A stretch of DNA of 64,000 bases from an uncultured Candidatus Saccharibacteria bacterium. Lineage in GTDB: Bacteria; Patescibacteriota; Minisyncoccia; Phycocordibacterales; UBA9973. A program made the translations under genes and the position numbers. The stretch is from assembly GCA_964591665.1 (NCBI GenBank), contig CAZQCV010000001.1, positions 178-64,177 of the forward strand. Direction: 5' to 3'. The notes below the pieces were generated by a model that was not told where the DNA came from, made no database searches, and saw nothing but the letters and a program-made list of their open reading frames with translations. Below, in pieces: positions 6,141 through 55,736 of this stretch. Positions within the stretch are counted from its first letter, which is position 1. Each line of letters begins with the position of its first letter.

Positions 6141-6230
6141 AATAAGTCACTGGTTTTAATTAGTAAAATGCAAAAAGCCCACCACATAAGGGATGATAGC
6201 TTTCGCTACCCATACACCTTTCGATGTACG

Positions 6231-6279
6231 ACCAGTGACGGAAGCCCCCTATGATGATGGGTTCTTTACACGTCACTGG
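6231..6279. other. perfect 9-bp inverted repeat (CCAGTGACG...CGTCACTGG) forming a stem-loop in the relatively GC-rich divergent intergenic region
   Basis: Read directly: ccagtgacg at 6231-6239 and cgtcactgg at 6271-6279 with a 31-nt loop. It sits in a local GC-rich patch within an otherwise AT-rich spacer. Confidence 0.3.
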
Positions 6280-6400
6280 ATTTTTCACCATGCCTCTATT
6301 ACTAAAGGTTTAGGCTACTACTTATTTGGTTGTAAGGATATTATATAAAAATTACCTTTAAAAAGAAAGCTTTTTAAGCTTAAAATAGACACTTTCTAAC

Positions 6401-34098: not shown

Positions 34099-34118
34099 AT
34101 ACTATAGATATACACTAT

Positions 34119-35834: not shown

Positions 35835-35863
35835 GAGAATTCCCCATGGCCTTAGATGTGTAC

Positions 35864-38800
35864 TTATTTACTGTCTTTTGATTCTATTTCAGAATCTTCT
35901 TTTTCTTCACGGAAACCAGTACCCGCTGGTATCAAACGTCCGATAATAACATTTTCTTTAAGACCACGGAGCTTATCTACACCACCACGGATAGCATTAT
36001 TGATTAGAACACGGTTTGTATTTTGGAAAGAAGCAGCTGAAAGCCAACTTTTTGTAGAGAGAGAAACATCAGAGATTCCAAGTACAATAGTTTCTGCTTT
36101 TGCTGGTTCACCTTGTTCTTCTGTCGCAACACGTTCATTTTCTTCAATAAGTTCAACAGACTCAATGATCTCACCAGGAGAAAATTGTGTATCACCTGGG
36201 TGTTTTACACGCTTACGTGAGAACATCTGGCGAATAATAATCTCTGTATGTTTTCGAGCAATAGATGCACCTTGAAGTTCATATACCTTGTTAATTTCAC
36301 GAATGATGTACTCTTCTGCGAGTTCCTTACTTCCATATTTGAATATTTCAGCAATATCAGCAGAACCATCAGTGAGTAGTTGCCCTTTTGTGATAGTATC
36401 ACCAACTTTTACTAGTGGTGTACGTCGGTATTGTACAAGATACTCTTCTTGGTTTGACTTTCCATCCATCTTTGAATCATTGAGCACAACAATGACTTTT
36501 TCTTTAGCAGTTGCTTTGATTTCTATGACAGTACCATCTGCTTTTGCAACAACTGCTGGGTTTTTTGGAGTTCGTTTTTCAAAAATTTCTTCAATACGTG
36601 GAAGACCTTGTGTAATATCCACACCTGCAACACCACCTGCGTGGAATGTTCGGAGTGTCAACTGCGTACCAGGTTCACCGATAGCTTGAGCTGCAATAAT
36701 ACCCACTGCCTCACCAGGTCGAACAAGGTGATCACGTCCAAGGTCGAGACCATAACACTGACGACACATACCATGAAGTGTTGTACAGGTTAGTGGAGTT
36801 CGTACGAATACTTTTTCAATACCAAGGCCTTCAATCTTGCGAGCTTCATGCTTGGTAACAAGAAATCCTTTTTTATACAGTACATTCCCTTGTGCATCTT
36901 TAATATCAGCAGCAAGCACACGACCACGGATATTTTTAGAGAGTGGAATATCTATACCGAGAACGTTATCGCGAGTCATCCACTTTCCTTCTTTAGTTCC
37001 ACAATCTTCTTCAGTGATTGTTACATCTTGTGCCACATCAACAAGACGACGTGTAAGATACCCAGCTTTTGCAGTATTAAGAGCCGTGTCAGCGAGACCT
37101 TTACGTGAACCGTGAGTAGTAATAAAGTACTCAATCGGAGAAAGACCTTCTTTATATGATGGGATAACAGGGAAATCAAGCGTCTGACCTTGTGTGTTTA
37201 CAATAAGACCTTTCATACCAGCCATCTGCGTGATATTACCAATAGAACCACGAGCACCTGACATTACCATGTCATGAACAGGGCCCATTGTGTCGAGTGT
37301 TGCCGGAATAAGTTTTTCAATTTCTCCTTTTTTCTTTTCCCAGATTTCAATTACTTTTTGGTAGCGTTCATCTTCAGAGAGTAAACCATCATTAAACTGC
37401 GCAATAACCTCTGCTTCTTCTTTTCGTCCTTCTTTTACGATTGCTGGTTTACCTTCTGGAATAGTCACGTTATCGATACCCCAAGTAACACCTGATTTTG
37501 TCGCATATCGATACCCAAATGCTTTAATTTTATCAAGTACAGGCGGCGTTGCGTCAATACCATAGTTGAAAATAATTTCATCAATCAATGCTGAAAGACG
37601 TTTTTGATTCATTTCTTCGTTAATATAGGTAAAGTCTGATGGAAGAATACTGTTAAACAATAAACGACCGACAGTTGTCTCAAATGGCTTACCTTCAAAG
37701 TGCGCATATTTAGGAGTATCTGTACCAAGTACGTGAATCTTTGCACGATATGATACGACACCAAAATCATACGCAGTGATCGCCTGATTTGGGGATGAGA
37801 ACATTCTTCCCTCACCAAGTTCACCAGGAACATTCTTTGTCATCCAGTAACAACCAAGAGTAATATCAAGAAGCTTAGATGACACAATTGGTTCACCATT
37901 TTGAGGCTTTAAGATATTTTTATTTGCCGCCATGAGTGTATCGGCTTCTCCTTGTGCTGCATCTGAAAGTGGAACATACACGGCCATTTGGTCACCGTCA
38001 AAGTCTGCGTTAAAGGCAGTACATACAAGTGGGTGAAGTTGGATAGCATTACCTTCAATCAAAATAGGGTGGAACGCTTGGATACCTAGTCGGTGAAGTG
38101 TTGGTGCACGGTTAAGCAGCACATACTTCCCTTCAATTACTTTTTCAAGAATCGCCCAGACTTCAGGAATACCTTCTTCAATGAGTTTGTTTGCTCCACG
38201 GATATTAAACGCAAGTTCTTGTGCAATTACCTTTGAGATAACAAATGGTCGGAAAAGTTCAAGCGCCATATGTTTCGGAAGACCACACTGATTGAGTTTA
38301 AGATTTGGACCAACCACGATTACAGAACGTCCAGAATAGTCTACTCGTTTACCGAGCAAGTTCTGACGGAAGAGACCTTGTTTTGATTTCAAGTTATCAG
38401 AGAGAGACTTAAGCGCTCGACGTTGTGACTGACTCATTGCTTGTGAGTCACTTTGACTTGCGATTGAGTTATCAAGAAGCGCATCAACAGCTTCTTGGAG
38501 AATACGTTTTTCGTTACGGAGGATCACATCAGGCGCACCGATTTCTTTGAGTTTTTTGAGACGATTGTTTCGGTTGATCACACGACGATAAAGATCATTA
38601 AGATCAGACGTTGCATGTCGTCCACCATCAAGCGCAACCATCGGACGAAGCGCTGGAGGAATTACAGGAATCACAGTCAAAAACATCCATTCAGGGCGAA
38701 TATGAGAGTGAATCATCGAACGAATAAGTGCGAGACGCTTCTCAAGTTTTTCACGCTCAAGAGAACTTGCTTTCTCAAGCAATTTTTCTGTATTTTCTTG

Positions 38801-39490
38801 GAGTTTAGCAAGATCAAGATTTTTGAAGAGTGTATAGATTGCCTCTGCACCGATCGCTGCTTCGAATGCAGCACCGTATTTCAAACTAAAGTGATGATAC
38901 TGGATTTCATTGAGAACTTTACCTTCATACAGATCAGTAATTTCTTTTTTTGTATTAGCAAGAAGGTCGCGAAGTTTTTCACGAGTTTCTTCATCTTGTG
39001 CTGACTTCATTTTACTCTTATATTCAGATTCAAGATTTGAAATGATAGTTTCTTTTTCGTCTTCATGAACACGAGTAATGATGTATCCTGCAAAGTAAAT
39101 AACTTTTTCAAGATCAGTAAGTGTCATATTCATAAGAATAGACATACGTGATGGTACACCACGAAGGAACCAAATATGCGCAACAGGTGAAGCCAGTTCA
39201 ATATGCCCCATACGTTCACGGCGAACAATAGAACGTGTTACCTCAACACCACATTTTTCACAAATAATATCTTTGTAGCGGATACGTCGATATTTACCAC
39301 AGTAACATTCGTAGTCTTTTTCTGGACCGAATACACGTTCGTCAAATAAACCACCACGTTCTGAACGACCCGTTCGATAGTTAATAGTTTCTGGTTTTTG
39401 AACTTCACCGTATGACCAATCGCGAATACGATCAGGAGACGCGAGTTTGAGTATAATTTCGTCAAAATGACTTGTATCAATTGTTTTCAT
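35864..39490 (-). CDS. rpoC: DNA-directed RNA polymerase subunit beta'
   Basis: NADFDGDQMAV catalytic motif and zinc-finger Cys residues. 1208 aa. Confidence 0.97.
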   Translation of the reverse strand: MKTIDTSHFDEIILKLASPDRIRDWSYGEVQKPETINYRTGRSERGGLFDERVFGPEKDYECYCGKYRRIRYKDIICEKCGVEVTRSIVRRERMGHIELASPVAHIWFLRGVPSRMSILMNMTLTDLEKVIYFAGYIITRVHEDEKETIISNLESEYKSKMKSAQDEETREKLRDLLANTKKEITDLYEGKVLNEIQYHHFSLKYGAAFEAAIGAEAIYTLFKNLDLAKLQENTEKLLEKASSLEREKLEKRLALIRSMIHSHIRPEWMFLTVIPVIPPALRPMVALDGGRHATSDLNDLYRRVINRNNRLKKLKEIGAPDVILRNEKRILQEAVDALLDNSIASQSDSQAMSQSQRRALKSLSDNLKSKQGLFRQNLLGKRVDYSGRSVIVVGPNLKLNQCGLPKHMALELFRPFVISKVIAQELAFNIRGANKLIEEGIPEVWAILEKVIEGKYVLLNRAPTLHRLGIQAFHPILIEGNAIQLHPLVCTAFNADFDGDQMAVYVPLSDAAQGEADTLMAANKNILKPQNGEPIVSSKLLDITLGCYWMTKNVPGELGEGRMFSSPNQAITAYDFGVVSYRAKIHVLGTDTPKYAHFEGKPFETTVGRLLFNSILPSDFTYINEEMNQKRLSALIDEIIFNYGIDATPPVLDKIKAFGYRYATKSGVTWGIDNVTIPEGKPAIVKEGRKEEAEVIAQFNDGLLSEDERYQKVIEIWEKKKGEIEKLIPATLDTMGPVHDMVMSGARGSIGNITQMAGMKGLIVNTQGQTLDFPVIPSYKEGLSPIEYFITTHGSRKGLADTALNTAKAGYLTRRLVDVAQDVTITEEDCGTKEGKWMTRDNVLGIDIPLSKNIRGRVLAADIKDAQGNVLYKKGFLVTKHEARKIEGLGIEKVFVRTPLTCTTLHGMCRQCYGLDLGRDHLVRPGEAVGIIAAQAIGEPGTQLTLRTFHAGGVAGVDITQGLPRIEEIFEKRTPKNPAVVAKADGTVIEIKATAKEKVIVVLNDSKMDGKSNQEEYLVQYRRTPLVKVGDTITKGQLLTDGSADIAEIFKYGSKELAEEYIIREINKVYELQGASIARKHTEIIIRQMFSRKRVKHPGDTQFSPGEIIESVELIEENERVATEEQGEPAKAETIVLGISDVSLSTKSWLSAASFQNTNRVLINNAIRGGVDKLRGLKENVIIGRLIPAGTGFREEKEDSEIESKDSK

Positions 39491-39508
39491 AAATTAGTAT
39501 TTTAATTA

Positions 39509-42500
39509 TTACTCAGCGTCCGACACACGCTCATCTTCTGCTAAAGGATTTGTGTTCACAAGATCAACATCAAGGGCAAGACCACGGAGATAGTTCAACA
39601 TAACGTTAAATGAGGCTGGAGCATTTGGTTCTTTGATAGGTTCACCTTTGATAATTGCATCAAATGTTTGTGATCGTCCGAGAATATCATCAGATTTAAT
39701 CGTAAGCATCTCACGAAGTGTGTGTGAGGCTCCATAACCTTCAAGTGCCCACACCTCCATTTCTCCGAATCTTTGTCCACCACCTTGTGCTTTACCACCG
39801 AGAGGCTGTTGCGTAATAAGAGAATATGGACCAATTGAACGCATGTGGATCTTATCTTCTACCATGTGGTGTAGTTTCAAAATATGTTTATATCCAATCG
39901 CCACAGGTTGCGCAAAAGCTTCACCAGTCTGTCCGTCATAAAGTGTCACCTTACCATGTTCTGGAAGCCCTGCCTTGACGAGTTCTTCTTTGATTTCTTT
40001 TTCACTTGCACCTGAGAATGGTGGCACCACTGCTTGATACCCAAGTGTGTGTGCTGCAAGACCAAGATGCATTTCAAGAATCTGTCCAAGGTTCATACGA
40101 GATGGCACACCAAGTGGTGTCAAAATAACATCGACAGGTGTTCCATCTGCCATGAATGGCATTTCTTCTTCTGGAAGAATAGTTGAAATAACACCTTTGT
40201 TACCGTGTCGTCCTGCAAGTTTATCACCTACAGAAATATTTCGGAGCTGTGCTACTTCGACAACTACTTTTTTGATAATTCCACTTTCGAGCTGGTGACC
40301 TTGTTCACGAGAGAATATCTTTACCCCGATAACACGACCGCGCATACCATGTTCCATGCGAAGTGATGTATCTTTCACATCACGAGCTTTTTCTGCAAAG
40401 ATAGAGCGGAGCAATCGTTCTTCTGGCGTAAGTTCTGTTTCACCTTTTGGTGTGATTTTACCAACAAGAATGTCATTCTCACGGACTTCAGCACCGACAC
40501 GAATAACACCTTCTTCATCAAGGTCTTTAAGTTTGTTTTCACCTACGTTTGGAATATCACGAGTAGTAAGTTCTGGACCAAGTTTTGTATCACGAACGAT
40601 ACAGACAAACTCTTCTACATAGATAGAAGTAAATTTACTGTTTTTTACCAAACGTTCTGAGAGAATAATCGCATCTTCGTAGTTCTGACCGTTCCATGAC
40701 ATAAACGCAACGAGTACGTTTTGTCCGAGTGCCATCTGTCCACCTGAAGTCGAAGACGTGTCAGCGATAACATCGCCTCGTTTTATCTTTTGACCAAGTG
40801 AGACAATAGGACGCTGGTGAAATACCGTAAAGTTATTTGTTCGTTCGAACGTAACAAGCTTGTATGTGTGTTCTTTGTTCTTATCATCTTTGATCTTTAT
40901 GAAACCGCCGTCAACATATGAAACAACACCTGATTCGCGAGCAACAACAACACGTCCTGATTCGCGAGCAATGTGTTCTTCAAGTCCAGTTGCAACTACC
41001 GGTGCATCTGGTACCACACATGGTGTTGCCTGTTTTTGCATGTTTGATCCCATGAGCGCTCGGTTTGCTTCATCATGCTCAAGAAACGGAATCATAGAAG
41101 TCGCAAGAGAAAATGCCTGGTTTGCCGCAACGTCAATAAAATCTACCTGATCACGATCAACGATGCCTGGTTCTGTTTTACTACGAGCTTCTACACGATC
41201 TTCAATAATTTTATTGTTTGCGTCGTATTTAGTACCTGAGTGAGCAATGACATATTTCTCTTCTTCAAGTGCGTTCATATAGACGACTTCACCAGTAATC
41301 TTACCGTTTTTAACGCGAATATATGGTGTTTCAATAATACCGAATTCATTGACGCGAGCAAAAAGCGACAAGTGCAAGATAAGACCGATGTTCGGACCTT
41401 CAGGAGTGTGGATCGGACATACGCGACCATAGTGAGATGTGTGTACGTCACGAACTTCAAGACCAGCACGTTCACGAGTAAGACCTCCTGGACCAAGCGC
41501 TGAGAGCGTTCGCAAGTGTTCAAGTTCCGCAAGAACGTTTTCTTGGTTCATAAACTGTGAAAGCTGGTTCGTCGTGAAGAATTCTTTGATACGAGCTTGA
41601 AGTGGACGTTGGTTAACGATAGACACAGGAAGTGTCGTGCCTGCATCAATTGTAGACATACGATCTTGCACGTTACGTTTGATCTGGGTCATACCAACAC
41701 GAATTTTCTGTTGCAATAGTTCACCGATGTATCGAACACGACGTTGACCCAAGTGATCTATATCGTCCGCAACCGCATGCGGTGTTGTATTTAGTTCAAA
41801 GAGATATTTTGCAATACTAACAAGATCGTCTGCAGAGAGTGTTCGACGTTCCATTTCTTTTTCGTCCATTGAAAGATCAAAACGCTTGTTAAAACGGAAT
41901 CGTCCTACCGGAGAAAGGTCATATCGTTCTTTGCTAAACAATGCAGTAATAAATTCTTTTGCGTTTTCTGCGGTTGCAAGATCGCCATCACGAAGCCGTT
42001 TATAGATCTCAACATATGATTCGCCGAGTGTTTTTGCACTGTCTTTTTCAACACACACTTTCATGATTGCTTCATGAGGTGTACCTTTAAATTTCTCAAG
42101 AATAGCTTCATCTGTAGTTAAACCAAGGACACGGAGAAGTGCCGTAAATGGGAATTTACGTTTCTTGTCGATACGAACAACTAGTGTACCGTCAGTATCA
42201 GTTTCGATTTCAATCCAGACACCACGTGCAGGAATAATTTTTGCACCGAATGTTGGCTTCCCTTTTGATTCGAGTTCAACAAAGAAGATACCAAATGAAC
42301 GAGCAAGCTGTGGTACAATAACACGCTCTACACCATTAATAATGAATGTACCGTGAGCTGTCATGAGTGGAATATCAGCAAAGAAAATTTCTTGTTCTTT
42401 TTCTGTACCAAGCGTTTTGTTTTTTAGTTTTACACGAGCTTTGAGCTGGCCTTCATAGGTAAGCTTATTCGCTTTTGCATGATGTTCATCACATTTTGGT

Positions 42501-42727
42501 TCACCGAGTGAGAACGATGAAAAATTAAGTTCAAACTTTTTTCCTGAATAATCAGAAATTGGTGAGAATTCTTTGAAAACCTCTTTGAGACCTGATTCAA
42601 CAAGCCACGAGAAAGAAGTCAGCTGTGTTTCAAGCAAATTCGGAAATGGAACCAACGGTTCTTTGTACTTTGCAAAGTACTTCTTAGGTAATGGTTTCGA
42701 CATACTATTTGTTCTTTCTACAAACAC
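39509..42727 (-). CDS. rpoB: DNA-directed RNA polymerase subunit beta
   Basis: Canonical beta-subunit blocks (GRHGNKGV, the rifampicin-cluster region). The start is probably the internal MSKPLPKK. Confidence 0.97.
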
Positions 42728-45280: not shown

Positions 45281-47248
45281 GTGAAAAAACAACAAAAAAC
45301 CTCCTCTCGCACAAAGAGCGCATCGAGTGTACCCAAATCTCTCGTTGGAACAATAACTATTTCCCCTAAACAAGTAGGTACTGTTTTTGACCCAATACAG
45401 AAGGTAAAAGTGATTATATATCTGGAAGATCTCCACGGAGCACTCCACGGAGACCATGTAACCGTCTCATTGCGACGACAAAAATCGCCTGGCGTCTATC
45501 AAGGACGTATTGAAAAAATACATAGTCACGCTAAACAGGGATATAGTGGTATTCTTAAAAAAGAGCAAAATGGTGTCCTTGTGCTTGAACCTCAAGATCC
45601 ACGAATGTACATGCGCATTGAAGTGACCGGACGTATTACCAAAGAAGCAATAGGAAAGAAAGTATTCGTATCTGACCTTATACATAAAAAACACTATATT
45701 GAAGCAAAAAAGTGTGAACTGCTCGGAGAATCAGGATCCCATGAAACCGAAATCCAGAGTATTATACGAGAACAAGGGTTCGCATATATCTTTCCTAAGG
45801 AGGTACTCGAAGAAGCAAAACGATACGGAGAACCTACTGGAAACGACTACAAACAACGCCTCGACATACGTGACGTACTTACGTTTACTATTGATCCTTT
45901 TGATGCAAAAGACTTTGACGATGCGTTATCTATTAAAAAAGTTAGTGATACTGTGTATGAAGTAGGTATACACATCGCAGACGTAAGCCATTATGTAAAG
46001 CCAAACACCGCACTTGATAAAGAAGCTTATAAACGAGGAACATCAATTTATCTCGTAGATCGAACCATACCTATGCTCCCTGAAAAACTCTCCAATGATC
46101 TTTGTAGCCTTAAACCCAACGTAGATCGACTCGCCATGAGTGTCATCCTACAGATAAAAACAGATGGTACAATAACAAAACGATGGTATGGACGCACTAT
46201 TATTCACTCAGATAAACGATTCACCTATGAAGAAGCCTGGGACAATATAAATAACCCTACTGGGCTTTACCACGAGGAACTCGTGACGCTTAATAACATC
46301 GCAAAAATTTTACGCAAAGAACGAGAAGAAAACGGTTCTCTCGAATTCGCTGGAGAAGAAATAAAATGTATATTAAATCCAGATAACACCGTAAAAGCAT
46401 TCATTCGCAAAGAACGCAATGACGCACATAAACTTATTGAAGAATACATGCTTCTTGCAAACCGCGAAATTGCCGCATTATGGAATCCTAAAAAATTAAA
46501 AAAAGGGCACGAGCTTTTCTTATTCAGAACTCACGATGTACCAAATGCAGAAAAACTCGCACTTCTTGAGAGTATTGCAACAGCACTTGGGTACGAAATA
46601 CCAAAAACAAAAAAACGTGTGACACAGCGAGACATTCAACAGTTCCTTAAAATGATACACCGTACTCCTCATGAAGGATTTTTGAGTACTCTCATGATTA
46701 GAGCAATGTCAAAAGCTATTTATTCAACTCGCGCAACTGGGCACTTCGGACTTGCACTTGAAGATTACACACACTTTACGTCACCCATTAGAAGGTACCC
46801 TGATATCGTAGTGCACCGTTTCTTAACGGACTACCTAGAACATAGAGAACGAAAGTATAAACCAAAAGAATTCGAGGCTATCGCCGCACATACGTCTCTT
46901 ATGGAGAAAAATGCAGCCCAAGCTGAAAGAGATTCTCTTGTATATAAACAAATCGAGTATATGCTCTCACGAAAAACAGAGACATTCACCGGAACTATCA
47001 CTGGAGTAATAGAACGTGGTATATTTATAGCAGAGACGTATAGTGGAAGTGAGGGCATGGTCTCGGTAGAACGTTTGGTACCAGGGACATGGGTATATAA
47101 CGAAAAGACATACTCATTCGCAAATACCGCCACGCAGGAAATACTACGCCTTGGTGATCATGTTTGTTTTAAAGTATATGACGGCGATCCGCTTAGTAGA
47201 CGTCTTGATTACACACATATTGTATGCGAGCACTCATCGAAAAAATAA
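45281..47248 (+). CDS. rnr: ribonuclease R (RNB-family 3'-5' exoribonuclease)
   Basis: Cold-shock/OB N-region, an RNB catalytic domain (DPFDAKDFDDALSI, HFGLALEDYTHFTSPIRRYPDIVVHR), and a C-terminal S1 domain. Confidence 0.9.
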   Translation: MKKQQKTSSRTKSASSVPKSLVGTITISPKQVGTVFDPIQKVKVIIYLEDLHGALHGDHVTVSLRRQKSPGVYQGRIEKIHSHAKQGYSGILKKEQNGVLVLEPQDPRMYMRIEVTGRITKEAIGKKVFVSDLIHKKHYIEAKKCELLGESGSHETEIQSIIREQGFAYIFPKEVLEEAKRYGEPTGNDYKQRLDIRDVLTFTIDPFDAKDFDDALSIKKVSDTVYEVGIHIADVSHYVKPNTALDKEAYKRGTSIYLVDRTIPMLPEKLSNDLCSLKPNVDRLAMSVILQIKTDGTITKRWYGRTIIHSDKRFTYEEAWDNINNPTGLYHEELVTLNNIAKILRKEREENGSLEFAGEEIKCILNPDNTVKAFIRKERNDAHKLIEEYMLLANREIAALWNPKKLKKGHELFLFRTHDVPNAEKLALLESIATALGYEIPKTKKRVTQRDIQQFLKMIHRTPHEGFLSTLMIRAMSKAIYSTRATGHFGLALEDYTHFTSPIRRYPDIVVHRFLTDYLEHRERKYKPKEFEAIAAHTSLMEKNAAQAERDSLVYKQIEYMLSRKTETFTGTITGVIERGIFIAETYSGSEGMVSVERLVPGTWVYNEKTYSFANTATQEILRLGDHVCFKVYDGDPLSRRLDYTHIVCEHSSKK

Positions 47249-49548
47249 GTACATTTGCAAGGACACATAGTAGGGCTGTTGAAATCACCGTTGGGCTTTT
47301 TGCACTTGCAACACTCGCTTTTTTTATCTTTACATATATTCCAAAAAACAAAGGAGATACAGTCGAGGAGCCAACCGCTTCTCAAGAAGTCACTAGTGAA
47401 GATGTCGTCCAAGATGTACAAGGTGATGTTCTCGAGACTATTTCTTTCGAAAATATACCAGACGAAGCGTTCGTACCACCAGCAGACGGAAAAGTGATTC
47501 GGGTTAATATACTCAAAGGTGAAGTTCGTCGGTATGAGAATGGCACACTTGTTGGAGAGACTATGCGCATGGTTGCACGACCTCGAAAAGGAACCTACTG
47601 GGAGACGCCAGGAGGTCTCTATCATATCTCAAACAAAGACGAAAACTATTATTCTGAAAAGGCAGGCGCATATCTACCCTACAGTATTCATTTATTTGGT
47701 AACTATATCATTCATGGTATTCCGAACAATGGAAAAGGACGCATCTATACGTCGAGTTTTCTAAATGGAGGAATCAGACTCTCAGATGCAAATGCAAAAG
47801 AATTGTATCTATGGTCTGACCCTGATACTCGAGTATCCATATTTAGCGATAGTGTATTGCGCCCCGAACAACTATACACGGGTTCAGTGTATATAACAGA
47901 AAACGGAAGCAGTAGACCAAGACTTGGCGCAGATGCATATATTATCGGAGACATAGACACAGGAGATATTATCCTTGAAAAGAACAAAGATAAAGTTTTC
48001 CCCCTTGCCTCACTTACAAAATTAATAACACTACTGGTCGCACTTGATAAAGAAAACCCTTTTGAAACTATCAAAGTATCTGGCCGTGCACTGAGTGCGT
48101 ACGGGACAAGTGGTTTCCGTGTCGGTGAAGAAGTTGAGATGGCAAACGTCGTATACCCACTATTACTTCAATCTTCTAACGATGCAGCAGAAATTCTCGC
48201 AGAATATGTAGGAAGAAATGAATTTTTGAAACTCATGAATGAAAAAGCAAAGTCACTCGGCATGATAAACACTTTTTTTGACGACCCTTCTGGACTTTCG
48301 GCAAACAACAAAACTTCAGCTTCTGATTTATTTAAGTTAGCACAACACATAACGAAAGAAAAATCTTTTATTTGGAAAATCACCGGCAAAAAGAGTTATA
48401 GCGCACAAGGTCATATATGGAGGAATATTAACCAATTCCTAAGACTTCAAGGTCATGTTGGTGGGAAGAGCGGACAAACAGATGAAGCACGGCAAACAAA
48501 CGTTGAGGTCTTTTCCCTACCACTCGGCGAAGGAAAGACTCGAAACATCGCGATTATTGTGTTACATACACCAGATAGATACAACGACACGATCCGTTTA
48601 TATAATTATGTGAAGAAAAATGTCACATTTGGACGTGATGGACTTTTCAAGTTCACGAGCAATCCAGAGGAAAACAAAGAAGTAGTCTTATCCTTCCTTG
48701 GAGATACCATGCTTGATCGTGGAGTAAAATTCTCAGTAAAGAAAAACTTTGCTGGTGATTATATGAAGTTATTCACACATATGGCAAAGCTGAAAGAAAG
48801 TGACTTCGCATTCATAAATCTTGAAGGTCCAGCATCAGACAAAGGAACTGATTTAAAAAATCTATACTCATTTAGAATGGAACCAAAAGTACTCGATACA
48901 CTTAAAGAAGCTGGCGTGGATGTTATAAACGTCGCAAACAACCATATTGCGGACTGGGGCACGGGAGCATTTACTGACACGATAGCAAGAATCAGAGGTA
49001 ATGGACTCCAAGCAGTTGGTGGTGGGTTCAATAGAGCTGAAGCTATCGAACCAGTAATTGTAGAAAAAGAAGGTATGAAAATTGGATATCTTGGCTTTTC
49101 TGATGTTGGACCAAGTGGGTTTGAAGCAGAAGAAAAAAAGCCTGGTATACTCTACGCAGATGATCCAGAGTTTAATACAATCGTTGCAAATGCAAAAAAG
49201 AAAGTTGATTTCCTTGTAGTATCATTCCACTGGGGCACTGAGTACGCAGGAGTGACTCGACGTCAAACGGAACTCGCTCATAAAGCTATCGATGCTGGAG
49301 CTAACATGATTGTCGGTCATAATCCTCACGTGACACAAGACACAGAACTTTACAAAGGTGGCGTGATTGCATACAGTCTTGGTAACTTTATCTTTGATCA
49401 AAATTTCTCAAAAGAAGTCTCTCAGGGTCTCATGGTAGAAGTCACGCTTGATGCAAAACAAAAACGGATAAAACGTTTCGACAAATTCACGATCACGCAA
49501 GACAAAGATCTTGTACCAAGCGAACCAAAACCGTTTGGTGAGAAATAA
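47224..49548 (+). CDS. tri-domain envelope protein: degenerate YkuD-like (L,D-transpeptidase-fold) domain + PBP5-type D-alanyl-D-alanine carboxypeptidase + CapA/PgsA metallophosphatase domain
   Basis: N-terminal TM. The HGIPNNGKGRIYTSSFLNGGIRL segment resembles an Ldt catalytic block, but the Cys and His are replaced (NGG instead of HGC). SLTKL (SxxK), SSN and KSG motifs belong to an S11 peptidase. LGDTMLDRG, NLEGP and VANNH match CapA. Confidence 0.75.
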   Translation: MRALIEKISTFARTHSRAVEITVGLFALATLAFFIFTYIPKNKGDTVEEPTASQEVTSEDVVQDVQGDVLETISFENIPDEAFVPPADGKVIRVNILKGEVRRYENGTLVGETMRMVARPRKGTYWETPGGLYHISNKDENYYSEKAGAYLPYSIHLFGNYIIHGIPNNGKGRIYTSSFLNGGIRLSDANAKELYLWSDPDTRVSIFSDSVLRPEQLYTGSVYITENGSSRPRLGADAYIIGDIDTGDIILEKNKDKVFPLASLTKLITLLVALDKENPFETIKVSGRALSAYGTSGFRVGEEVEMANVVYPLLLQSSNDAAEILAEYVGRNEFLKLMNEKAKSLGMINTFFDDPSGLSANNKTSASDLFKLAQHITKEKSFIWKITGKKSYSAQGHIWRNINQFLRLQGHVGGKSGQTDEARQTNVEVFSLPLGEGKTRNIAIIVLHTPDRYNDTIRLYNYVKKNVTFGRDGLFKFTSNPEENKEVVLSFLGDTMLDRGVKFSVKKNFAGDYMKLFTHMAKLKESDFAFINLEGPASDKGTDLKNLYSFRMEPKVLDTLKEAGVDVINVANNHIADWGTGAFTDTIARIRGNGLQAVGGGFNRAEAIEPVIVEKEGMKIGYLGFSDVGPSGFEAEEKKPGILYADDPEFNTIVANAKKKVDFLVVSFHWGTEYAGVTRRQTELAHKAIDAGANMIVGHNPHVTQDTELYKGGVIAYSLGNFIFDQNFSKEVSQGLMVEVTLDAKQKRIKRFDKFTITQDKDLVPSEPKPFGEK

Positions 49549-51497: not shown

Positions 51498-51530
51498 ACG
51501 GGAGACGTAATCTCCCGTTCTTTTTTATTT
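51498..51530. terminator. convergent or bidirectional rho-independent terminator
   Basis: acgggaga/tctcccgt hairpin followed by TTTTTTATTT. The smc stop codon lies within the T-run. Confidence 0.55.
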
Positions 51531-53801
51531 TGCAATTTTTACAGCATCATCAAATTTGATGGAAAGTAATTTTGAGCCACCATCTGCTCCGATGGTCACT
51601 CCATAGAGTACTTTTGCACGAGACATAGTCTCTCGGTTATGTGTTACCACAATTAATTGTGAGTATTTCGAAAGGTTTTCAATCATATCACCGTATCTGC
51701 GACTGTTCGCTTCATCGAGTGCAGCGTCGGTTTCATCGAGCACAAGGAATGGCGGAGGATTGACTTGTGACATTGCGAAGAGTAATGCGATAGAAGTAAG
51801 TGATCGCTCTCCACCTGAGAGCATCGCAAGTTCTTTAACCTTTTTGTGTGGAAGTGATACATTAATCTCTATACCTCGTTCAAACTGAAATTCTTCTCCA
51901 GAGTCAACAGGAACCTCTTGTTCTTCATCATCTTTTGAAGGACGTTTATGTTCGACAACAATAGAAAGGAATGCACCCCCACCGCCAAACATGAGGCTGA
52001 AAAACTCATTAAACTGCTTATTGATTTTTTCAACACCAGTTTTAAATTCTCGATCAATAGTTTCTCGAAGCTCTCTAATCAATCCACGAAGCTCAGCAAT
52101 CGCGTTTTCCAAGTCTACAAGCTCCTTTGCAAGAAATTGGTCTCGTGCAACTTTTTCTTCATACTCAGTAACTACGTCTGATCCTCCTCCCCCACCGATA
52201 TCTTCAATTTTAATTTTAATACGCTCAATTTGACGTCGAAGATTTTCTTGAGTATCTCGTGTCCATTGTTCATTTGCAACGTACGTTTGAGGAATACGAA
52301 GCGCCTCTTCACCAACAAGAACTAGAGCCTCTTGCTTTTCTTCTTCATGTTTTTGTCTGCGCAATGAGAGCTCTTGTTGCTTAAAAAGAATCATTTCTTG
52401 TTTAGCGAGTAACGCATCATATGTTCTTTTTTGTTCGTAATAGTCACGTTCACGAATGCGCATCTCTTCTTCAGCTTGTGCCTTTTCCTTAAAATACTGA
52501 TCTTTCTCTACACGAACCTGAGAGAGCGATGATTCTATCTCCGTACGTTGTTGCTCGAGGGAGGTAAGTGTTGCTTTTAATTCCTGCTGTTGGGCATCGA
52601 GATGCTCTGTATCATCTGTTCTATCAAAAGTAACCGCTTGAGATTGATGCGTAGAGACAAAAGTATCAAAAATATGTTCAATTTGTCCGATAAGTTCAAT
52701 CCGAGCACTATCGTCTGTGGTGTTGCGAAGTGTAACCATAAGACCTTTTACCTGAGAAATAGTCTCATGAACAACCTCAAAAGGTATTACCACTTTTTTA
52801 GTCTCAGGCTTTTTTAACAATCTCTCAAGAGACTGCAACGTAGTCTCAATAGCACCTTCTATTCGACCAATGTTTCGAGTAATTTCTTCACGATGTTGTT
52901 GTAATTCTTTTTCTTTGCGGTGTATTTCTTGTAACCACTCTGGTTTATATTCAAAACCTGCTGATTGTGTAGCTTCGGTTTTTTTGATTGCTTGTGTAAG
53001 TATTTCAAGTTCTTCGCGTATTGAAGAAAGCGAAGTATGTAAGATTTCTTGTTCTTTAGATAGATAGAGCGCTTCCTCAAAAAAATAGGTGTGGTATAAG
53101 TTAATTACTTCTTCTCTGAGTATTTTTGCTTTTTCAATCTTTTCAACTTGTTTCTTAAGGAAAACAATATGCGGTGCAATTTCACGACGAAGTGCACCAA
53201 CTTCTTTCATGTTTTGGAGTGTCTTTTCAAGACGTCTTTCACTTTCTTTGAGTCGAAATTGATACACACGTAACCCCAATGCATCTTCGATCATACCACG
53301 TCGATCTTTTGCGTTTGCAGAGAGCAATCTATCAGCTTCGCCCTGTGAGATAATATGATGACCCGATGAACCGATATTCACCGATGCTAACAACTCAACA
53401 ACATCTTTCAAACGAACAGAAGTACCGTTAATTGCATATTCATTACCACCATCAGCAAAAACCTCACGGCTAATGGTGATCTCGTTAAAATCAACGGAAA
53501 TTTTACTATCACTAGTTCGTTGAAATTGAAAAAGTTTTTGACGATTATCAAATGTTATCGCGACTCGAGCCCGAGAAAGCGGTGAAAGAATCTTTGAGCC
53601 TTTAAATATAAGATCCGAACCCCCTTTACCGCGTAGAGATTTAATAGATTGTTCTCCTAGTACAAATCGTATTGCCTCAACGACGTTTGACTTGCCAGAA
53701 CCATTCGGCCCCACGATAGCTGTGACGGGAGAATCAAAAAGCAATTCGGTTTTTTTTGCGAAAGATTTAAAGCCAGTGAGTTCAATTGATTTGAGAACCA
53801 T
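51525..53801 (-). CDS. smc: compact SMC-family chromosome-segregation ATPase (758 aa, no canonical hinge domain evident)
   Basis: N-terminal Walker A (GPNGSGKSNVVEAIRFVLGEQS), C-terminal signature LSGGERSLTSIALLFAM and Walker B FLVLDETDAALD. The two long coiled-coil arms are separated by only a short non-helical segment (~res 340-400). Confidence 0.75.
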   Translation of the reverse strand: MVLKSIELTGFKSFAKKTELLFDSPVTAIVGPNGSGKSNVVEAIRFVLGEQSIKSLRGKGGSDLIFKGSKILSPLSRARVAITFDNRQKLFQFQRTSDSKISVDFNEITISREVFADGGNEYAINGTSVRLKDVVELLASVNIGSSGHHIISQGEADRLLSANAKDRRGMIEDALGLRVYQFRLKESERRLEKTLQNMKEVGALRREIAPHIVFLKKQVEKIEKAKILREEVINLYHTYFFEEALYLSKEQEILHTSLSSIREELEILTQAIKKTEATQSAGFEYKPEWLQEIHRKEKELQQHREEITRNIGRIEGAIETTLQSLERLLKKPETKKVVIPFEVVHETISQVKGLMVTLRNTTDDSARIELIGQIEHIFDTFVSTHQSQAVTFDRTDDTEHLDAQQQELKATLTSLEQQRTEIESSLSQVRVEKDQYFKEKAQAEEEMRIRERDYYEQKRTYDALLAKQEMILFKQQELSLRRQKHEEEKQEALVLVGEEALRIPQTYVANEQWTRDTQENLRRQIERIKIKIEDIGGGGGSDVVTEYEEKVARDQFLAKELVDLENAIAELRGLIRELRETIDREFKTGVEKINKQFNEFFSLMFGGGGAFLSIVVEHKRPSKDDEEQEVPVDSGEEFQFERGIEINVSLPHKKVKELAMLSGGERSLTSIALLFAMSQVNPPPFLVLDETDAALDEANSRRYGDMIENLSKYSQLIVVTHNRETMSRAKVLYGVTIGADGGSKLLSIKFDDAVKIAK

Positions 53802-53813
53802 ACACTATGTATT

Positions 53814-54509
53814 CTAATCTATCCAGCCTCGAACGACAAGCGCTTCTTGTGCTGCTTTCTGCTCTGCCTCTTGTTTTGATTTACCCTTTCCTTGTGCTAC
53901 GAGTGTCGTACCGAAATAAATACCGACCACAAATCTTTTATCATGATCTGGCCCCGTTTCATTGAGAACTTTATACATGGGTGTAACACGCTCATATTCT
54001 TGTGCTTTCTCTTGGGCAAGACTCTTTGAGTCACGCCATAGTTTCTTGGTAACAATTTCATGTAGTTTCGGAAAAAGAAATTTCTCAACAAAAACCCGCG
54101 CAGCGTCATACCCTTGATCGAGATATATTGCCCCGAGGCAAGCTTCAAACGTATTTGCAAGAATATGTGAACGAGCTTTACCCATATCACGACTTTCACC
54201 TTTTGAAAGTAGTAAATACTCGTTAAGGCCAAGTTCGAGTGCAACAGTACCGATAACTTGAGTGTTTACCAACGCAGAACGATACGCGGTGAGTTCCCCT
54301 TCTGGTGCTTGCGAATACGTACGAAAAAGATGATCGGTCACCACCAATTCAAGCACCGCGTCACCAAGAAATTCGAGTCGCTCATTATGTGCAAGTTTCG
54401 ATCCAAGATTTTCGTTTATATAAGATCGATGAATAAACGCCTGTGTCAGCAGATCCTTGTTTTTAAATGTAGTTTCTAATTTTTTTTCTAGAGATGAAAA
54501 ATCAATCAT
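53814..54509 (-). CDS. rnc: ribonuclease III
   Basis: RNase III signature ERLEFLGDAVLELVV plus a C-terminal dsRBD. Confidence 0.9.
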   Translation of the reverse strand: MIDFSSLEKKLETTFKNKDLLTQAFIHRSYINENLGSKLAHNERLEFLGDAVLELVVTDHLFRTYSQAPEGELTAYRSALVNTQVIGTVALELGLNEYLLLSKGESRDMGKARSHILANTFEACLGAIYLDQGYDAARVFVEKFLFPKLHEIVTKKLWRDSKSLAQEKAQEYERVTPMYKVLNETGPDHDKRFVVGIYFGTTLVAQGKGKSKQEAEQKAAQEALVVRGWID

Positions 54510-54526: not shown

Positions 54527-55411
54527 TTAAGAAATAAGTGGAATTGCTTTTGCAATGAGTGCGGTAACACTGTCATACATTTTAAGCTTGGCAACATCTT
54601 CGAGTTTAAACCACTGCGCGGCGTCCAGACCACCTGAAGATTCGAGATGAAGTTCTTCATAAGGCGCTTCTGCCAAGAAAAAGGTAACTCGTTTAAGAGA
54701 ACGACCGTTTGTAGGATGTTTGGCAACATACTCATCAGTACCAAGGGATTGTTTAATCACGATATCAATTCCCATTTCTTCTTTTATCTCTCGCACAGCT
54801 GCTGCTTCAGGACTTTCGTCTTCAGGCTCTACCCCACCTTTCGAGAGCGTCCAATACCCAAACACATCATGCACCAAAGCCAAATAGACAATTCCATTGT
54901 CTATAGTGTATACAACCGCACCTGCTTTTTGGTCAATAGGAAGTTTAGAAATATCTACGGGTTCATCATCTTTTTTGTCATCCTTACCTGGCTCACCAAG
55001 TTCCTTGTAAACCGCACCAAGTACACCGTTTACGAACCGACTTGAGCTATCTCCACCAAAAGACTTTGCTAGTTCAATTGCCTCGTTGATAGCAACACGA
55101 GGAGGGACTTCGTCTTTATTACCAAAAAGAAGTTCGCCGAGTCCGAGACGGAGCACATTACGATCAACTGCATTGATCTTTTCAAGCGGCCACTGTGGCG
55201 CAGCCTTGGTTATAACTTGATCAATAACATCACGATTTCGAACCACTAGTTCCAAGATACGTTCCATAAAAGGAGTGTCATCGAGTCCTGGTCCAAATTC
55301 TTCTATATTACGAAGAAGTACTTCACCAACGGTATCGATTGGTGCGTTCTTAAAGTCCCACTCAAAGAGTGTCTGGAGAATAATTGAACGTGAAAGATGT
55401 CTATTTGCCAT
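54527..55411 (-). CDS. nusB: NusB antitermination factor fused to a C-terminal NUDIX hydrolase domain
   Basis: The N-terminal ~140 aa has NusB helices (RSIILQTLFEWDF..., INEAIELAKSFGGDSSSRFVNGVLG). A linker is followed by the NUDIX box GGVEPEDESPEAAAVREIKEEMGI. Confidence 0.75.
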   Translation of the reverse strand: MANRHLSRSIILQTLFEWDFKNAPIDTVGEVLLRNIEEFGPGLDDTPFMERILELVVRNRDVIDQVITKAAPQWPLEKINAVDRNVLRLGLGELLFGNKDEVPPRVAINEAIELAKSFGGDSSSRFVNGVLGAVYKELGEPGKDDKKDDEPVDISKLPIDQKAGAVVYTIDNGIVYLALVHDVFGYWTLSKGGVEPEDESPEAAAVREIKEEMGIDIVIKQSLGTDEYVAKHPTNGRSLKRVTFFLAEAPYEELHLESSGGLDAAQWFKLEDVAKLKMYDSVTALIAKAIPLIS

Positions 55412-55514
55412 ACGTAAAAGAATTAATTGATAGGTGCAATACTTTTTGCAAAAGACGTGGAGTGTACCATCTCAAAGAAAAAGTATTTCACAAGAAAACC
55501 AACAGCGCAAAATA

Positions 55515-55736
55515 TTACTTTGCGCTGCGAGCTTTCACCTTTGCCTGCTTTTTTTCAACTGCTTTCACAACATCGATAACTTTCTTACCGCGATACATAC
55601 CAGTCGACATATCAACGCGATGACGAAGATGTGTTGAACCAGATTTGGTATCAGTTGTTATTGCCTTTGATGTAAGGGCATGATGTGAGCGGCGATTCCC
55701 TGTGTGGGCCCGCGTATGTCGCATTCTAACTACCAT
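55515..55736 (-). CDS. rpmF: 50S ribosomal protein L32
   Basis: [22 protein letters not shown] matches the bL32 N-terminus. The start was trimmed from the longer ORF. Confidence 0.8.

What the first reader, a model, noticed from the sequence alone, without database searches (positions are those of the whole stretch)
54527..55411. NusB fused to a NUDIX hydrolase domain
A single ORF carries a complete NusB fold and then a canonical NUDIX box (GGVEPEDESPEAAAVREIKEEMGI). NusB is normally a stand-alone ~140-aa antitermination factor. A nucleotide-pyrophosphatase fused to it would couple rRNA antitermination to nucleotide, alarmone or cap-like metabolite hydrolysis.
Basis: seen in the sequence. Interest (0 to 1): 0.5.

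Follow-up and report, generated by a model that had tools for sequence, protein, structure and literature searches.

The report
NusB with tethered Ap4A-hydrolase-like Nudix domain
This gene really does join the rRNA antitermination factor NusB to a Nudix domain of the Ap4A-hydrolase type; the fusion is conserved in hundreds of Patescibacteria (candidate phyla radiation) species but is annotated only as "NusB" and appears undescribed, hinting at a link between rRNA transcription and alarmone or RNA 5'-cap chemistry.

Summary
Window 54527-55411 (minus strand) is one 294-aa ORF made of three parts:
- a bona fide NusB (TIGR01951, 120.6 bits against a cutoff of 88.35);
- a disordered K/D/E-rich linker;
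- a Nudix domain with a complete Nudix box.

It is not a frameshift artefact. The identical protein occurs on 20 independent contigs. More than 120 clusters (90% identity) are full length, and at least 588 species genomes hold a relative; the best 80 are all full-length fusions in Patescibacteria. In those 80 loci the cluster rpmF - nusB::nudix - rnc - smc is conserved.

The Nudix domain belongs with the asymmetrical Ap4A/Ap6A hydrolases (aq_158, NUDT2, Ndx1, CT771) and keeps their four ligand-binding residues.

Across the wider fusion family the catalytic Glu residues are lost in about 80% of diverged clusters, while the ligand-binding residues persist. Nucleotide-polyphosphate binding is therefore the conserved function. 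Catalysis looks retained in this protein and its clade.

Best reading (inferred, untested): NusB docks on BoxA/S10, and the tethered Nudix domain recognises and here hydrolyses an Ap4A-like ligand or the polyphosphate or Np4-capped 5' end of the nascent rRNA.

I found no paper describing it. I rate it a new variant of known kinds, of moderate interest.

The parts
54527..55411 (-). Whole nusB::nudix ORF, 294 aa plus stop codon
   Evidence: ORF list. Pfam NusB plus NUDIX. Identical protein on 20 independent contigs.
54998..55411 (-). NusB domain, residues 1-138, seven helices
   Evidence: TIGR01951 scores 120.6 bits against a cutoff of 88.35. PDB NusB hits: T. maritima 8e-18, Aquifex 4e-17, E. 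coli 5e-14. AF2 predicts seven helices with pLDDT about 90. F126 aligns with the BoxA-U8-stacking F122 and is 100% conserved (PMC3177189).
54938..54997 (-). Junction motif GEPGKD (residues 139-144) and flexible K/D/E-rich linker (residues 139-158)
   Evidence: pLDDT is below 50 for residues 141-149 and pTM is 0.51. Linker length is 15-49 aa (median 32) across 177 fused proteins. GEPGK[DEN] is present in 130 of 177 and absent from the stand-alone NusB relatives.
54530..54937 (-). Nudix domain of the Ap4A-hydrolase type, residues 159-294
   Evidence: PF00293. Best PDB sequence hits are Ap4A/Ap6A hydrolases. Foldseek gives aq_158 TM 0.85 and Ndx1 TM 0.84. K191, Y228, K240 and Y279 align with NUDT2 K42, Y82, K89 and F128 (PMC4734340).
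54767..54835 (-). Nudix box GVEPEDESPEAAAVREIKEEMGI (residues 193-215), all consensus positions met
   Evidence: Read from the sequence and matched by regex. E199, R207, E208, E211 and E212 are all intact in 93 of 121 close relatives but in only 9 of 55 diverged clusters.
55515..55736 (-). rpmF (ribosomal protein L32), upstream neighbour in the conserved cluster
   Evidence: PF01783, E 4e-13. Present directly upstream in 76 of 80 related loci.
53814..54509 (-). rnc (RNase III), starting 17 nt downstream of the nusB::nudix stop
   Evidence: Pfam Ribonuclease_3 plus dsrm. Directly downstream in 80 of 80 related loci.
51525..53801 (-). Short SMC-like ATPase (758 aa), the last gene of the conserved cluster
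   Evidence: Pfam SMC_N only. Downstream of rnc in 71 of 80 loci.

Best explanation
This is the organism's NusB antitermination factor carrying a C-terminal, flexibly tethered Nudix domain of the asymmetrical Ap4A-hydrolase (NUDT2/aq_158/Ndx1) type.

Shown:
- It is one continuous gene, conserved across Patescibacteria of the Paceibacteria/Parcubacteria group, inside a conserved rpmF - nusB::nudix - rnc - smc cluster.
- The NusB part passes the NusB equivalog model. It keeps the Phe that stacks on BoxA U8 and an aromatic residue at the NusE-interface position.
- The Nudix part keeps the adenine-stacking and phosphate-binding residues of Ap4A hydrolases and, in this protein, a complete catalytic Nudix box.
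- The two domains are joined by a disordered linker of 15-49 residues.

Inferred mechanism:
- The NusB module binds S10 (NusE) and the BoxA element of the nascent rRNA leader on RNA polymerase.
- This holds the Nudix module within linker reach of the transcript's 5' end. There it recognises an adenine-nucleotide polyphosphate: the 5'-triphosphate or an Np4 (Ap4A-derived) cap of the nascent RNA, or free Ap4A.
- In this clade it hydrolyses that ligand, preparing the leader for processing together with the co-encoded RNase III.
- In the many relatives that have lost the catalytic glutamates, the same pocket would only bind, acting as a 5'-end clamp or alarmone sensor.
For: - Domain calls.
- Full-length conservation: more than 120 clusters; at least 588 species hits, with the best 80 all full-length fusions; about 55 diverged 50%-identity clusters down to about 30% identity.
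- Identical sequence on 20 contigs.
- Synteny with rpmF in 76 of 80 loci and rnc in 80 of 80.
- AF2 model: both domains confident (mean pLDDT 86.9), linker below 50, pTM 0.51, which fits a flexible tether.
- Nudix family assignment: the family profile hits aq_158 at 1.3e-18, CT771 at 1e-14, C. elegans Ap4A hydrolase at 1e-12, NUDT2 at 7e-12, Ndx1 at 1e-10 and then Dcp2 at 6e-9. Foldseek gives TM 0.85 and 0.84.
- K191, Y228, K240 and Y279 align with the NUDT2 P1-phosphate and adenine-stacking residues K42, Y82, K89 and F128 (PMC4734340). They are 75-95% conserved even in diverged members and 93-100% in the close set.
- NusB F126 = F122, D83 = AaE81 and F16 = EcY18 (PMC3177189).
- The junction motif GEPGKD is specific to the fused forms.
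- Np4A alarmones become RNA 5' caps that Nudix RppH and ApaH remove (PMC8833179, PMC7044304), so enzymes of this general kind have documented RNA 5'-end substrates.
Against: - No biochemical or expression data exist.
- No rRNA operon or BoxA was available to test the geometry. The window has no rRNA, and E. coli-type BoxA matches are at chance level.
- RppH-specific models match only far below cutoff (about 21 bits against 116-118).
- Related Patescibacteria carry a stand-alone NusB in the same rpmF - nusB - rnc cluster with no Nudix (L082, L085), so the domain is not required for NusB function.
- The catalytic residues are often lost.
- AF2 gives no fixed interdomain contact.
- Whether the ligand is an RNA 5' end or a free dinucleotide is undetermined.
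Confidence: 0.42

Rival explanations
1. Non-catalytic module. Even in this protein the Nudix domain works mainly as a ligand sensor (Ap4A or another adenine polyphosphate) or as a structural RNA- or protein-binding subunit of the antitermination complex. Its occupancy would tune NusB-dependent rRNA transcription, and hydrolysis would be incidental.
For: In 45 of 55 diverged fusion clusters at least one of E208, E211 or E212 is replaced. W187, K191, Y228, K240, W267 and Y279 stay 75-95% conserved in the same clusters. Some relatives appear to keep only a decayed Nudix remnant, with the box replaced by a K/E-rich insert (hhalign probability 48%, E 1.9e-4). Precedents for inactive Nudix folds in RNA processing or transcription control exist: CFIm25, which also binds Ap4A (PMC2425470), and NrtR/AraR (both appear in the hit lists).
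Against: The window protein and 93 of 121 close relatives keep every catalytic position of the Nudix box. That argues for selection on catalysis in this clade.
Confidence: 0.25
2. Two independent jobs on one chain. A housekeeping Ap4A or nucleotide-pool Nudix hydrolase became fused to NusB in small, compact genomes for co-expression only, with no functional coupling to antitermination.
For: The linker is flexible and AF2 predicts no interface (pTM 0.51). The domain is absent from some related NusB genes in the same cluster. It is the only Nudix box in the 64-kb window.
Against: The fusion is retained in at least 588 species and down to about 30% identity. The fold and ligand pocket persist after catalysis is lost, which is hard to explain for a purely catalytic housekeeping enzyme. 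The junction motif GEPGKD is conserved and specific to the fusion. No related locus shows nusB and nudix as genuine separate neighbours.
Confidence: 0.2
3. An assembly or sequencing artefact (frameshift or chimera) joins two adjacent genes.
For: None found. One metagenome contig (L081) has the gene called as two pieces.
Against: The identical ORF occurs on 20 independent contigs. All 80 best species-level loci are continuous. The L081 interruption is a single in-frame TAA at the invariant Tyr135 codon, and conserved sequence continues in the same frame.
Confidence: 0.01

Closest known systems
Stand-alone NusB (E. coli, Aquifex, T. maritima; NusB-NusE-BoxA complex of the rRNA antitermination machinery)
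   Same: Residues 1-138 pass the NusB equivalog model. They align end to end with solved NusB structures and form seven helices. They keep F126 (= F122, BoxA U8 stacking), D83 (= AaE81) and an aromatic residue at the EcY18 NusE-interface position (PMC3177189).
   Different: The protein carries an extra 155 residues (linker plus Nudix domain). The conserved GEPGKD motif after the last helix is absent from stand-alone NusB.
Asymmetrical Ap4A/Ap6A Nudix hydrolases (A. aeolicus aq_158, human NUDT2, C. elegans Ap4A hydrolase, T. thermophilus Ndx1, Chlamydia CT771, M. tuberculosis Rv2985 N-domain)
   Same: These are the best sequence, profile and fold matches. The Nudix box is complete. The equivalents of NUDT2 K42, Y82, K89 and F128 are conserved (PMC4734340).
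   Different: Those enzymes are free-standing, or in MutT1/Rv2985 fused to a different domain (from the chain lengths). Here the domain is fused behind NusB. Identity is only 24-30%. Most diverged members of the fusion family lack the catalytic glutamates.
RppH/ApaH removal of 5'-triphosphate and Np4 caps from bacterial RNA
   Same: RppH is a Nudix enzyme that acts on polyphosphate-linked RNA 5' ends derived from Ap4A-type alarmones (PMC8833179, PMC7044304). This is the activity proposed for the tethered domain.
   Different: RppH-specific NCBIfam models match only at about 21 bits against cutoffs of 116-118. RppH is not fused to a transcription factor. No activity has been tested here.
Dcp2 (helical regulatory domain followed by a Nudix decapping domain)
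   Same: The layout is the same: an all-helical N-terminal domain followed by a Nudix domain. Dcp2 Nudix domains are the next-best profile hits after the Ap4A hydrolases, and whole-length Foldseek alignments appear.
   Different: The helical domains are unrelated (NusB fold here). The two-domain superpositions have rmsd of about 11 A. Dcp2 is eukaryotic and works on m7G caps.
RsmB/Sun rRNA methyltransferase (NusB-like N-terminal domain fused to an enzyme)
   Same: It is a precedent for a NusB fold serving as the RNA-targeting head of an rRNA-directed enzyme. RsmB models give weak hits to the NusB part.
   Different: RsmB scores are far below cutoff (43.6 bits against 319). There is no methyltransferase domain. 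The N-domain here is an orthologous NusB, not merely NusB-like.
Non-catalytic Nudix folds: CFIm25/NUDT21 and NrtR/AraR regulators. For comparison, SuhB in the E. coli rRNA antitermination complex (SuhB is from my own knowledge, not checked here)
   Same: These are Nudix folds, or in SuhB another enzyme fold, used as a ligand- or RNA-binding module in RNA processing or transcription control. CFIm25 binds Ap4A without hydrolysing it (PMC2425470). This resembles the diverged fusion members that lost catalytic residues.
   Different: The window protein has an intact Nudix box. There is no specific sequence relationship to CFIm25 or SuhB.

Membership tests
NusB (TIGR01951 / PF01029) | Scores above the curated cutoff of the NusB equivalog model over its full length | tested here: met
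   TIGR01951 scores 120.6 bits against a cutoff of 88.35, covering model positions 2-130 of 131. PF01029 E 2.8e-30.
NusB (TIGR01951 / PF01029) | All-helical seven-helix fold | tested here: met
   AF2 predicts helices at 5-21, 25-39, 46-58, 60-70, 81-96, 104-119 and 121-138, with pLDDT about 80-96.
NusB (TIGR01951 / PF01029) | BoxA-contact residues: Phe stacking on U8 (Aa/Ec F122) and an acidic residue at AaE81 | tested here: met
   F126 aligns with F122 and is 100% conserved in close and diverged fused proteins. D83 aligns with AaE81 (PMC3177189).
NusB (TIGR01951 / PF01029) | NusE (S10) interface residue equivalent to EcY18 | tested here: inconclusive
   The aligned residue is F16 (Tyr in some relatives). 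An aromatic residue is kept but the hydroxyl is lost. No S10 complex was modelled.
NusB (TIGR01951 / PF01029) | Binds BoxA RNA with S10 and supports rRNA antitermination | not testable with these tools
   Needs EMSA or ITC and complementation of E. coli delta-nusB.
Nudix hydrolase superfamily (PF00293) | Nudix box GX5EX7REUXEEXGU | tested here: met
   G193-x5-E199-x7-R207-E208-I209-x-E211-E212-x-G214-I215 (sequence).
Nudix hydrolase superfamily (PF00293) | Alpha/beta/alpha Nudix fold | tested here: met
   PF00293 scores 56.7 bits against a cutoff of 21.1. Foldseek target-normalised TM 0.85 to 3i7u and 0.84 to 1vc8.
Asymmetrical Ap4A hydrolase (NUDT2-like) subfamily | Closest relatives by sequence, profile and structure are characterised Ap4A/ApnA hydrolases | tested here: met
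   The top hits are aq_158, CT771, C. elegans and human Ap4A hydrolases and Ndx1.
Asymmetrical Ap4A hydrolase (NUDT2-like) subfamily | P1-phosphate and adenine-stacking residues (human K42, Y82, K89, F128) | tested here: met
   K191, Y228, K240 and Y279 align to them in the HMMER alignment. The roles are taken from PMC4734340.
Asymmetrical Ap4A hydrolase (NUDT2-like) subfamily | Hydrolyses Ap4A asymmetrically to ATP plus AMP | not testable with these tools
   Needs an enzyme assay.
RppH-type RNA pyrophosphohydrolase | Match to the RppH equivalog models | tested here: not met
   PRK00714 models score 13-21 bits against cutoffs of 116-259. The protein is not filed as RppH. An RppH-like activity remains possible.
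Non-catalytic Nudix (NrtR/CFIm25-like) | Degenerate Nudix box lacking the metal-binding glutamates | tested here: not met
   The window protein has an intact box. The feature is met by 45 of 55 diverged clusters of the same fusion family.
RsmB (NusB-like domain plus methyltransferase) | C-terminal SAM-dependent m5C methyltransferase domain, with scores above the RsmB cutoffs | tested here: not met
   Scores are 43.6 bits against a cutoff of 319 and 30.5 bits against 269. The hits cover the NusB part only.

The most novel reading that the evidence does not exclude
In Paceibacteria the rRNA antitermination complex carries its own 5'-end enzyme or sensor. The NusB-tethered Ap4A-hydrolase-like domain acts co-transcriptionally on the triphosphate or Np4 (alarmone-derived) cap of the nascent rRNA leader. 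In catalytically dead versions it clamps that end or senses Ap4A. This would wire alarmone and cap chemistry directly into rRNA synthesis and RNase III-dependent maturation, a coupling not known in any model bacterium.
Probability: 0.3. Interest if true: 0.75.

Novelty: new variant of a known kind. Interest (0 to 1): 0.55.

Why it matters
NusB is one of the most conserved and best-studied transcription factors, and it is treated as a simple single-domain adaptor. This lineage-wide version carries a nucleotide-polyphosphate-binding (and here probably hydrolysing) domain. That suggests that in these reduced-genome, uncultivated bacteria the 5'-end or alarmone status is read or edited directly at the rRNA transcription complex.

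It offers a defined, purifiable protein with which to test whether Ap4A or Np4 caps connect to rRNA synthesis, an open question about what Ap4A does. The repeated loss of catalytic residues with retention of the ligand pocket is also a clean natural case of an enzyme turning into a binding module. In practice, thousands of database entries labelled only "NusB" hide a second domain.

Tried and rejected
- Artefact or split-gene hypothesis. I looked up apparently stand-alone Nudix (P0260) and NusB (P0190) relatives. P0260 comes from a contig whose gene has one in-frame TAA at the invariant Tyr135 codon, so it is not a real split. P0190, P0222 and P0192 are genuine stand-alone NusB proteins with no adjacent Nudix gene. 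The fusion is therefore not two neighbouring genes read through.
- BoxA. A search for the E. coli BoxA consensus in the window gave 2 matches at 2 mismatches against 3.9 expected. The window has no rRNA operon, so this was uninformative.
- AlphaFold-database fold search, to see how UniProt names such proteins. The library was not available.
- Literature. Four searches (NusB+Nudix, +fusion, NusB+Patescibacteria, Nudix+Parcubacteria) found no description of this architecture. This covers only the open-access library.
- P0233-type NusB proteins (338-345 aa with no Pfam hit in the C-terminal half). A profile comparison with the Nudix domain gave only 48% probability (E 1.9e-4) over the C-terminal 84 columns. 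This is suggestive of a decayed Nudix but not established.
- (p)ppGpp hydrolase and MutT-type 8-oxo-GTPase readings. These are not favoured. MutT, NudG-like and other NTPase models match only the Nudix box region at low scores, whereas Ap4A hydrolases match over the whole domain.
- Promoter and terminator scans around the gene are at chance level overall.
Full report
**Observation**

The reported coordinates hold one ORF on the minus strand, 54527..55411, encoding 294 aa from an ATG. Pfam finds NusB (PF01029, residues 7-136, E 2.8e-30) followed by NUDIX (PF00293, residues 182-278, E 3.2e-15). The NCBIfam equivalog model for NusB, TIGR01951, is passed over its full length at 120.6 bits against a cutoff of 88.35.

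The quoted motif is residues 192-215. Counted from the second glycine, it satisfies every position of the Nudix box GX5EX7REUXEEXGU: G193, E199, R207, E208, I209, E211, E212, G214, I215. It is the only such box in the six-frame translation of the window. There is no Met between residues 49 and 213, so no ATG start lies between the two domains.

**Is it an artefact?**

No. Five lines of evidence agree.
- The identical 294-aa sequence is on record from 20 contigs in NCBI, JGI, ENA and Logan assemblies.
- A search of 5.8 billion proteins returned 8000 scored hits. The best 120 clusters (60-95% identity) all cover the whole query and all carry both Pfam domains.
The best 80 are all full-length fusions, matching query residues 1 to 289-294.
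- The 80 records are named Nomurabacteria, Paceibacterota/Paceibacteria, Parcubacteria, Adlerbacteria, Lloydbacteria, Minisyncoccia or Patescibacteria. Many bulk-assembled MAGs carry an "uncultured Candidatus Saccharibacteria" label, and one is labelled Flavobacteriaceae.
- At 50% clustering, an exhaustive HMMER search lists dozens of further full-length fusion clusters down to about 30% identity.

The one apparently split relative (L081, genes called NusB 133 aa plus NUDIX 141 aa) is the same gene with a single in-frame TAA at the invariant Tyr135 codon. Conserved sequence continues in the same frame.

**Anatomy**

AlphaFold2 on a 44-sequence alignment gives mean pLDDT 86.9. It predicts seven helices for residues 5-138 and an alpha/beta Nudix fold for residues 159-293. 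pLDDT is below 50 for residues 141-149 and pTM is only 0.51. This describes two well-folded domains with no predicted fixed contact.

The linker (Y135 to G164) is 15-49 residues long, with a median of 32, across 177 fused proteins. It is rich in K, E and D. It starts with the motif GEPGK[D/E/N] in 130 of 177 proteins. The stand-alone NusB relatives lack this motif. I cannot explain the motif.

**NusB half**

It aligns end to end with solved NusB structures: T. maritima at 8e-18, Aquifex at 4e-17 and E. coli at 5e-14. I mapped it onto the Aquifex NusB-NusE-BoxA structure paper (PMC3177189).
- F126 is the equivalent of F122, which stacks on BoxA U8; F122D is defective in E. coli. F126 is 100% conserved in both close and diverged fused proteins.
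- D83 corresponds to AaE81.
- F16 corresponds to EcY18, which is buried in the NusE interface.
- The N-terminal R4 and R8 are 87-89% conserved in the diverged members.

This is an orthologous NusB, not merely a NusB-like domain.

**Nudix half**

By sequence, the best solved relatives are the Aquifex Ap4A hydrolase aq_158, human NUDT2, T. thermophilus Ap6A hydrolase Ndx1, the DIPP enzymes and Chlamydia CT771. A profile of the family's Nudix domains sharpens this:
- aq_158, 1.3e-18
- CT771, 1.1e-14
- C. elegans Ap4A hydrolase, 1.2e-12
- NUDT2, 7e-12
- Ndx1, 1.2e-10
- Dcp2 Nudix domains, 6e-9

Foldseek agrees, with target-normalised TM 0.85 to aq_158 and 0.84 to Ndx1. It also hits Rv2985, titled a Nudix diadenosine polyphosphatase.

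In the printed alignment to NUDT2, K191, Y228, K240 and Y279 fall on K42, Y82, K89 and F128. According to PMC4734340 these form the P1-phosphate site and the adenine-stacking pair in Ap4A hydrolases. RppH-specific models match only far below cutoff.

**Catalysis is not what the family conserves**

I aligned 177 fused proteins and split them at 60% identity to the window protein.

| Set | E199/R207/E208/E211/E212 all intact | E208/E211/E212 intact |
|---|---|---|
| Close (≥60% identity, n=121) | 93 | 99 |
| Diverged (50%-identity cluster representatives, n=55) | 9 | 10 |

Typical replacements in the diverged set are RE to RK, RI, RV or RA, and EE to DE, KE or EK.

In the same 55 diverged clusters the putative ligand-contact and core residues are far better kept:
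- W187, 51 of 55
- K191, 52 of 55
- Y228, 43 of 55 (plus 5 Phe)
- K240, 41 of 55 (plus 7 Arg)
- W267, 51 of 55
- Y279, 50 of 55

The property maintained across the fusion family is therefore a folded NUDT2-like pocket for an adenine nucleotide polyphosphate. Hydrolysis seems to be retained in the window's clade and a few deep branches (for example P0235, P0253, P0148, P0143) and repeatedly lost elsewhere. These counts are of clusters, not independent evolutionary events.

A small group of NusB proteins of 268-345 aa has no Pfam hit in the C-terminal half. They show a K/E-rich insert where the Nudix helix would be. They give a weak profile match to the C-terminal half of the Nudix domain (probability 48%, E 1.9e-4). 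This may be the end point of the decay, but it is not established.

**Context**

The gene sits between rpmF (L32, PF01783) and rnc (RNase III), followed by a short SMC-like ATPase. rnc starts 17 nt after the fusion's stop codon. In the 80 related loci rnc follows in 80, rpmF precedes in 76 and smc follows in 71.

Related Patescibacteria with a genuine stand-alone NusB (140-144 aa) have the same rpmF - nusB - rnc order and no Nudix gene there (L082, L085). The cluster therefore exists with and without the domain, and the domain is not obligatory for NusB.

The window has no rRNA operon. E. coli-type BoxA matches are at chance level. The BoxA geometry could not be examined.

**How it most likely works**

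Shown: a real, ancient, lineage-wide fusion of orthologous NusB to an Ap4A-hydrolase-type Nudix domain through a flexible tether, encoded next to RNase III.

Inferred:
- NusB binds S10 and BoxA in the nascent rRNA leader, as in model bacteria (PMC3177189). This would keep the Nudix pocket within tens of angstroms of that transcript.
- A tether gives an advantage for a localised substrate. The obvious localised adenine polyphosphate is the transcript's own 5' end, either a triphosphate or an Np4 cap derived from Ap4A-type alarmones.
- Such caps exist in bacteria and are removed by the Nudix enzyme RppH and by ApaH (PMC7044304, PMC8833179).
- In the window protein the intact box predicts hydrolysis. 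In degenerate relatives the same pocket would bind only, as a 5'-end clamp or Ap4A sensor.

I give this reading a confidence of about 0.4. The rivals are:
- a purely non-catalytic sensor or structural module even here (0.25);
- two unrelated functions co-expressed on one chain (0.2);
- an artefact (about 0.01).

**Comparison with known systems**

It is a member of the NusB family and of the Nudix superfamily, and within the latter of the NUDT2-like Ap4A hydrolase group by sequence, fold and ligand residues. Its activity is untested. It is not an RppH by model score and not an RsmB.

Its layout, a helical domain followed by a Nudix domain, parallels Dcp2, but the helical domains are unrelated. 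RsmB is the known precedent for a NusB fold heading an rRNA-directed enzyme. CFIm25 (an inactive Nudix fold that binds Ap4A and sits in an RNA-processing complex; PMC2425470) and NrtR/AraR are precedents for the catalytically dead versions.

Databases name these proteins only "transcription antitermination factor NusB" or "N utilization substance protein B". Four literature searches found no description of the architecture. That covers only the open-access library.

**Verdict**

- Novelty: a new variant of known kinds.
- Interest: 0.55. The architecture is robust, widespread and apparently undescribed, and it makes an Ap4A/5'-cap link to rRNA transcription testable in vitro. The mechanism is inferred, and the organisms are uncultivated.

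Noticed in passing
window 6195-6316 (-): A full-length match to the Rfam LOOT RNA family (RF03000): 88.2 bits against a gathering score of 46.4. It lies between ORFs 5256-6140 (-) and 6468-8456 (+).
   Followed up: no
window 51525-53801 (-): The SMC-like ATPase is only 758 aa. Pfam finds SMC_N spanning both ends but no hinge domain, and there is a GGGGG run mid-protein. Related loci show tblastn matches of the same size, about 2.25 kb, in 71 of 80. This appears to be a conserved short, possibly hinge-less SMC in this lineage.
   Followed up: partly
window 55502-55528 (-): A 12-bp hairpin followed by a T-rich run overlaps the 3' end of rpmF, about 90 nt upstream of the nusB::nudix start. It could be an rpmF terminator or attenuator that controls read-through into nusB::nudix and rnc. 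Overall terminator counts in the region are not above chance.
   Followed up: no
window residues 139-144 of the ORF (nt 54980-54997): The junction motif GEPGKD directly after the last NusB helix is present as GEPGK[D/E/N] in 130 of 177 fused proteins and absent from stand-alone NusB relatives. AF2 confidence drops within it. It may be a short linear motif for a partner. Unexplained.
   Followed up: partly
L081 542-1459: A metagenome contig (GCA_013565675.1) carries the fusion gene with an in-frame TAA at the invariant Tyr135 codon, so gene callers split it into NusB (133 aa) and NUDIX (141 aa). This is a sequencing error, a pseudogene or a polymorphism.
   Followed up: yes
L082 513-1026; L085 4672-6050; L083 6001-6459: Related Patescibacteria have genuine stand-alone NusB proteins of 140-152 aa. 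In L082 and L085 the order is rpmF - nusB - rnc with no Nudix. In L083 the context is different. The Nudix domain was therefore either gained within, or lost from, an older rpmF - nusB - rnc cluster.
   Followed up: partly
proteins P0233, P0246, P0249, P0261 (and P0268, P0229, P0150, P0162): These are other C-terminal extensions on close NusB relatives. Four have a 130-200-aa extension with a K/E-rich insert and only a weak profile match to the Nudix domain (probability 48%). Two have acidic low-complexity tails. Two keep GEPGK and then continue into unrelated sequence, possibly chimeric contigs.
   Followed up: partly
window 32719-42727 (-), 45281-47248 (+), 47224-49548 (+): The same window carries rpoB, rpoC, dnaG, rpoD and an RNase R-like RNB protein. 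It also has a large fusion protein combining YkuD L,D-transpeptidase, D-Ala-D-Ala carboxypeptidase and PGA_cap domains.
   Followed up: no
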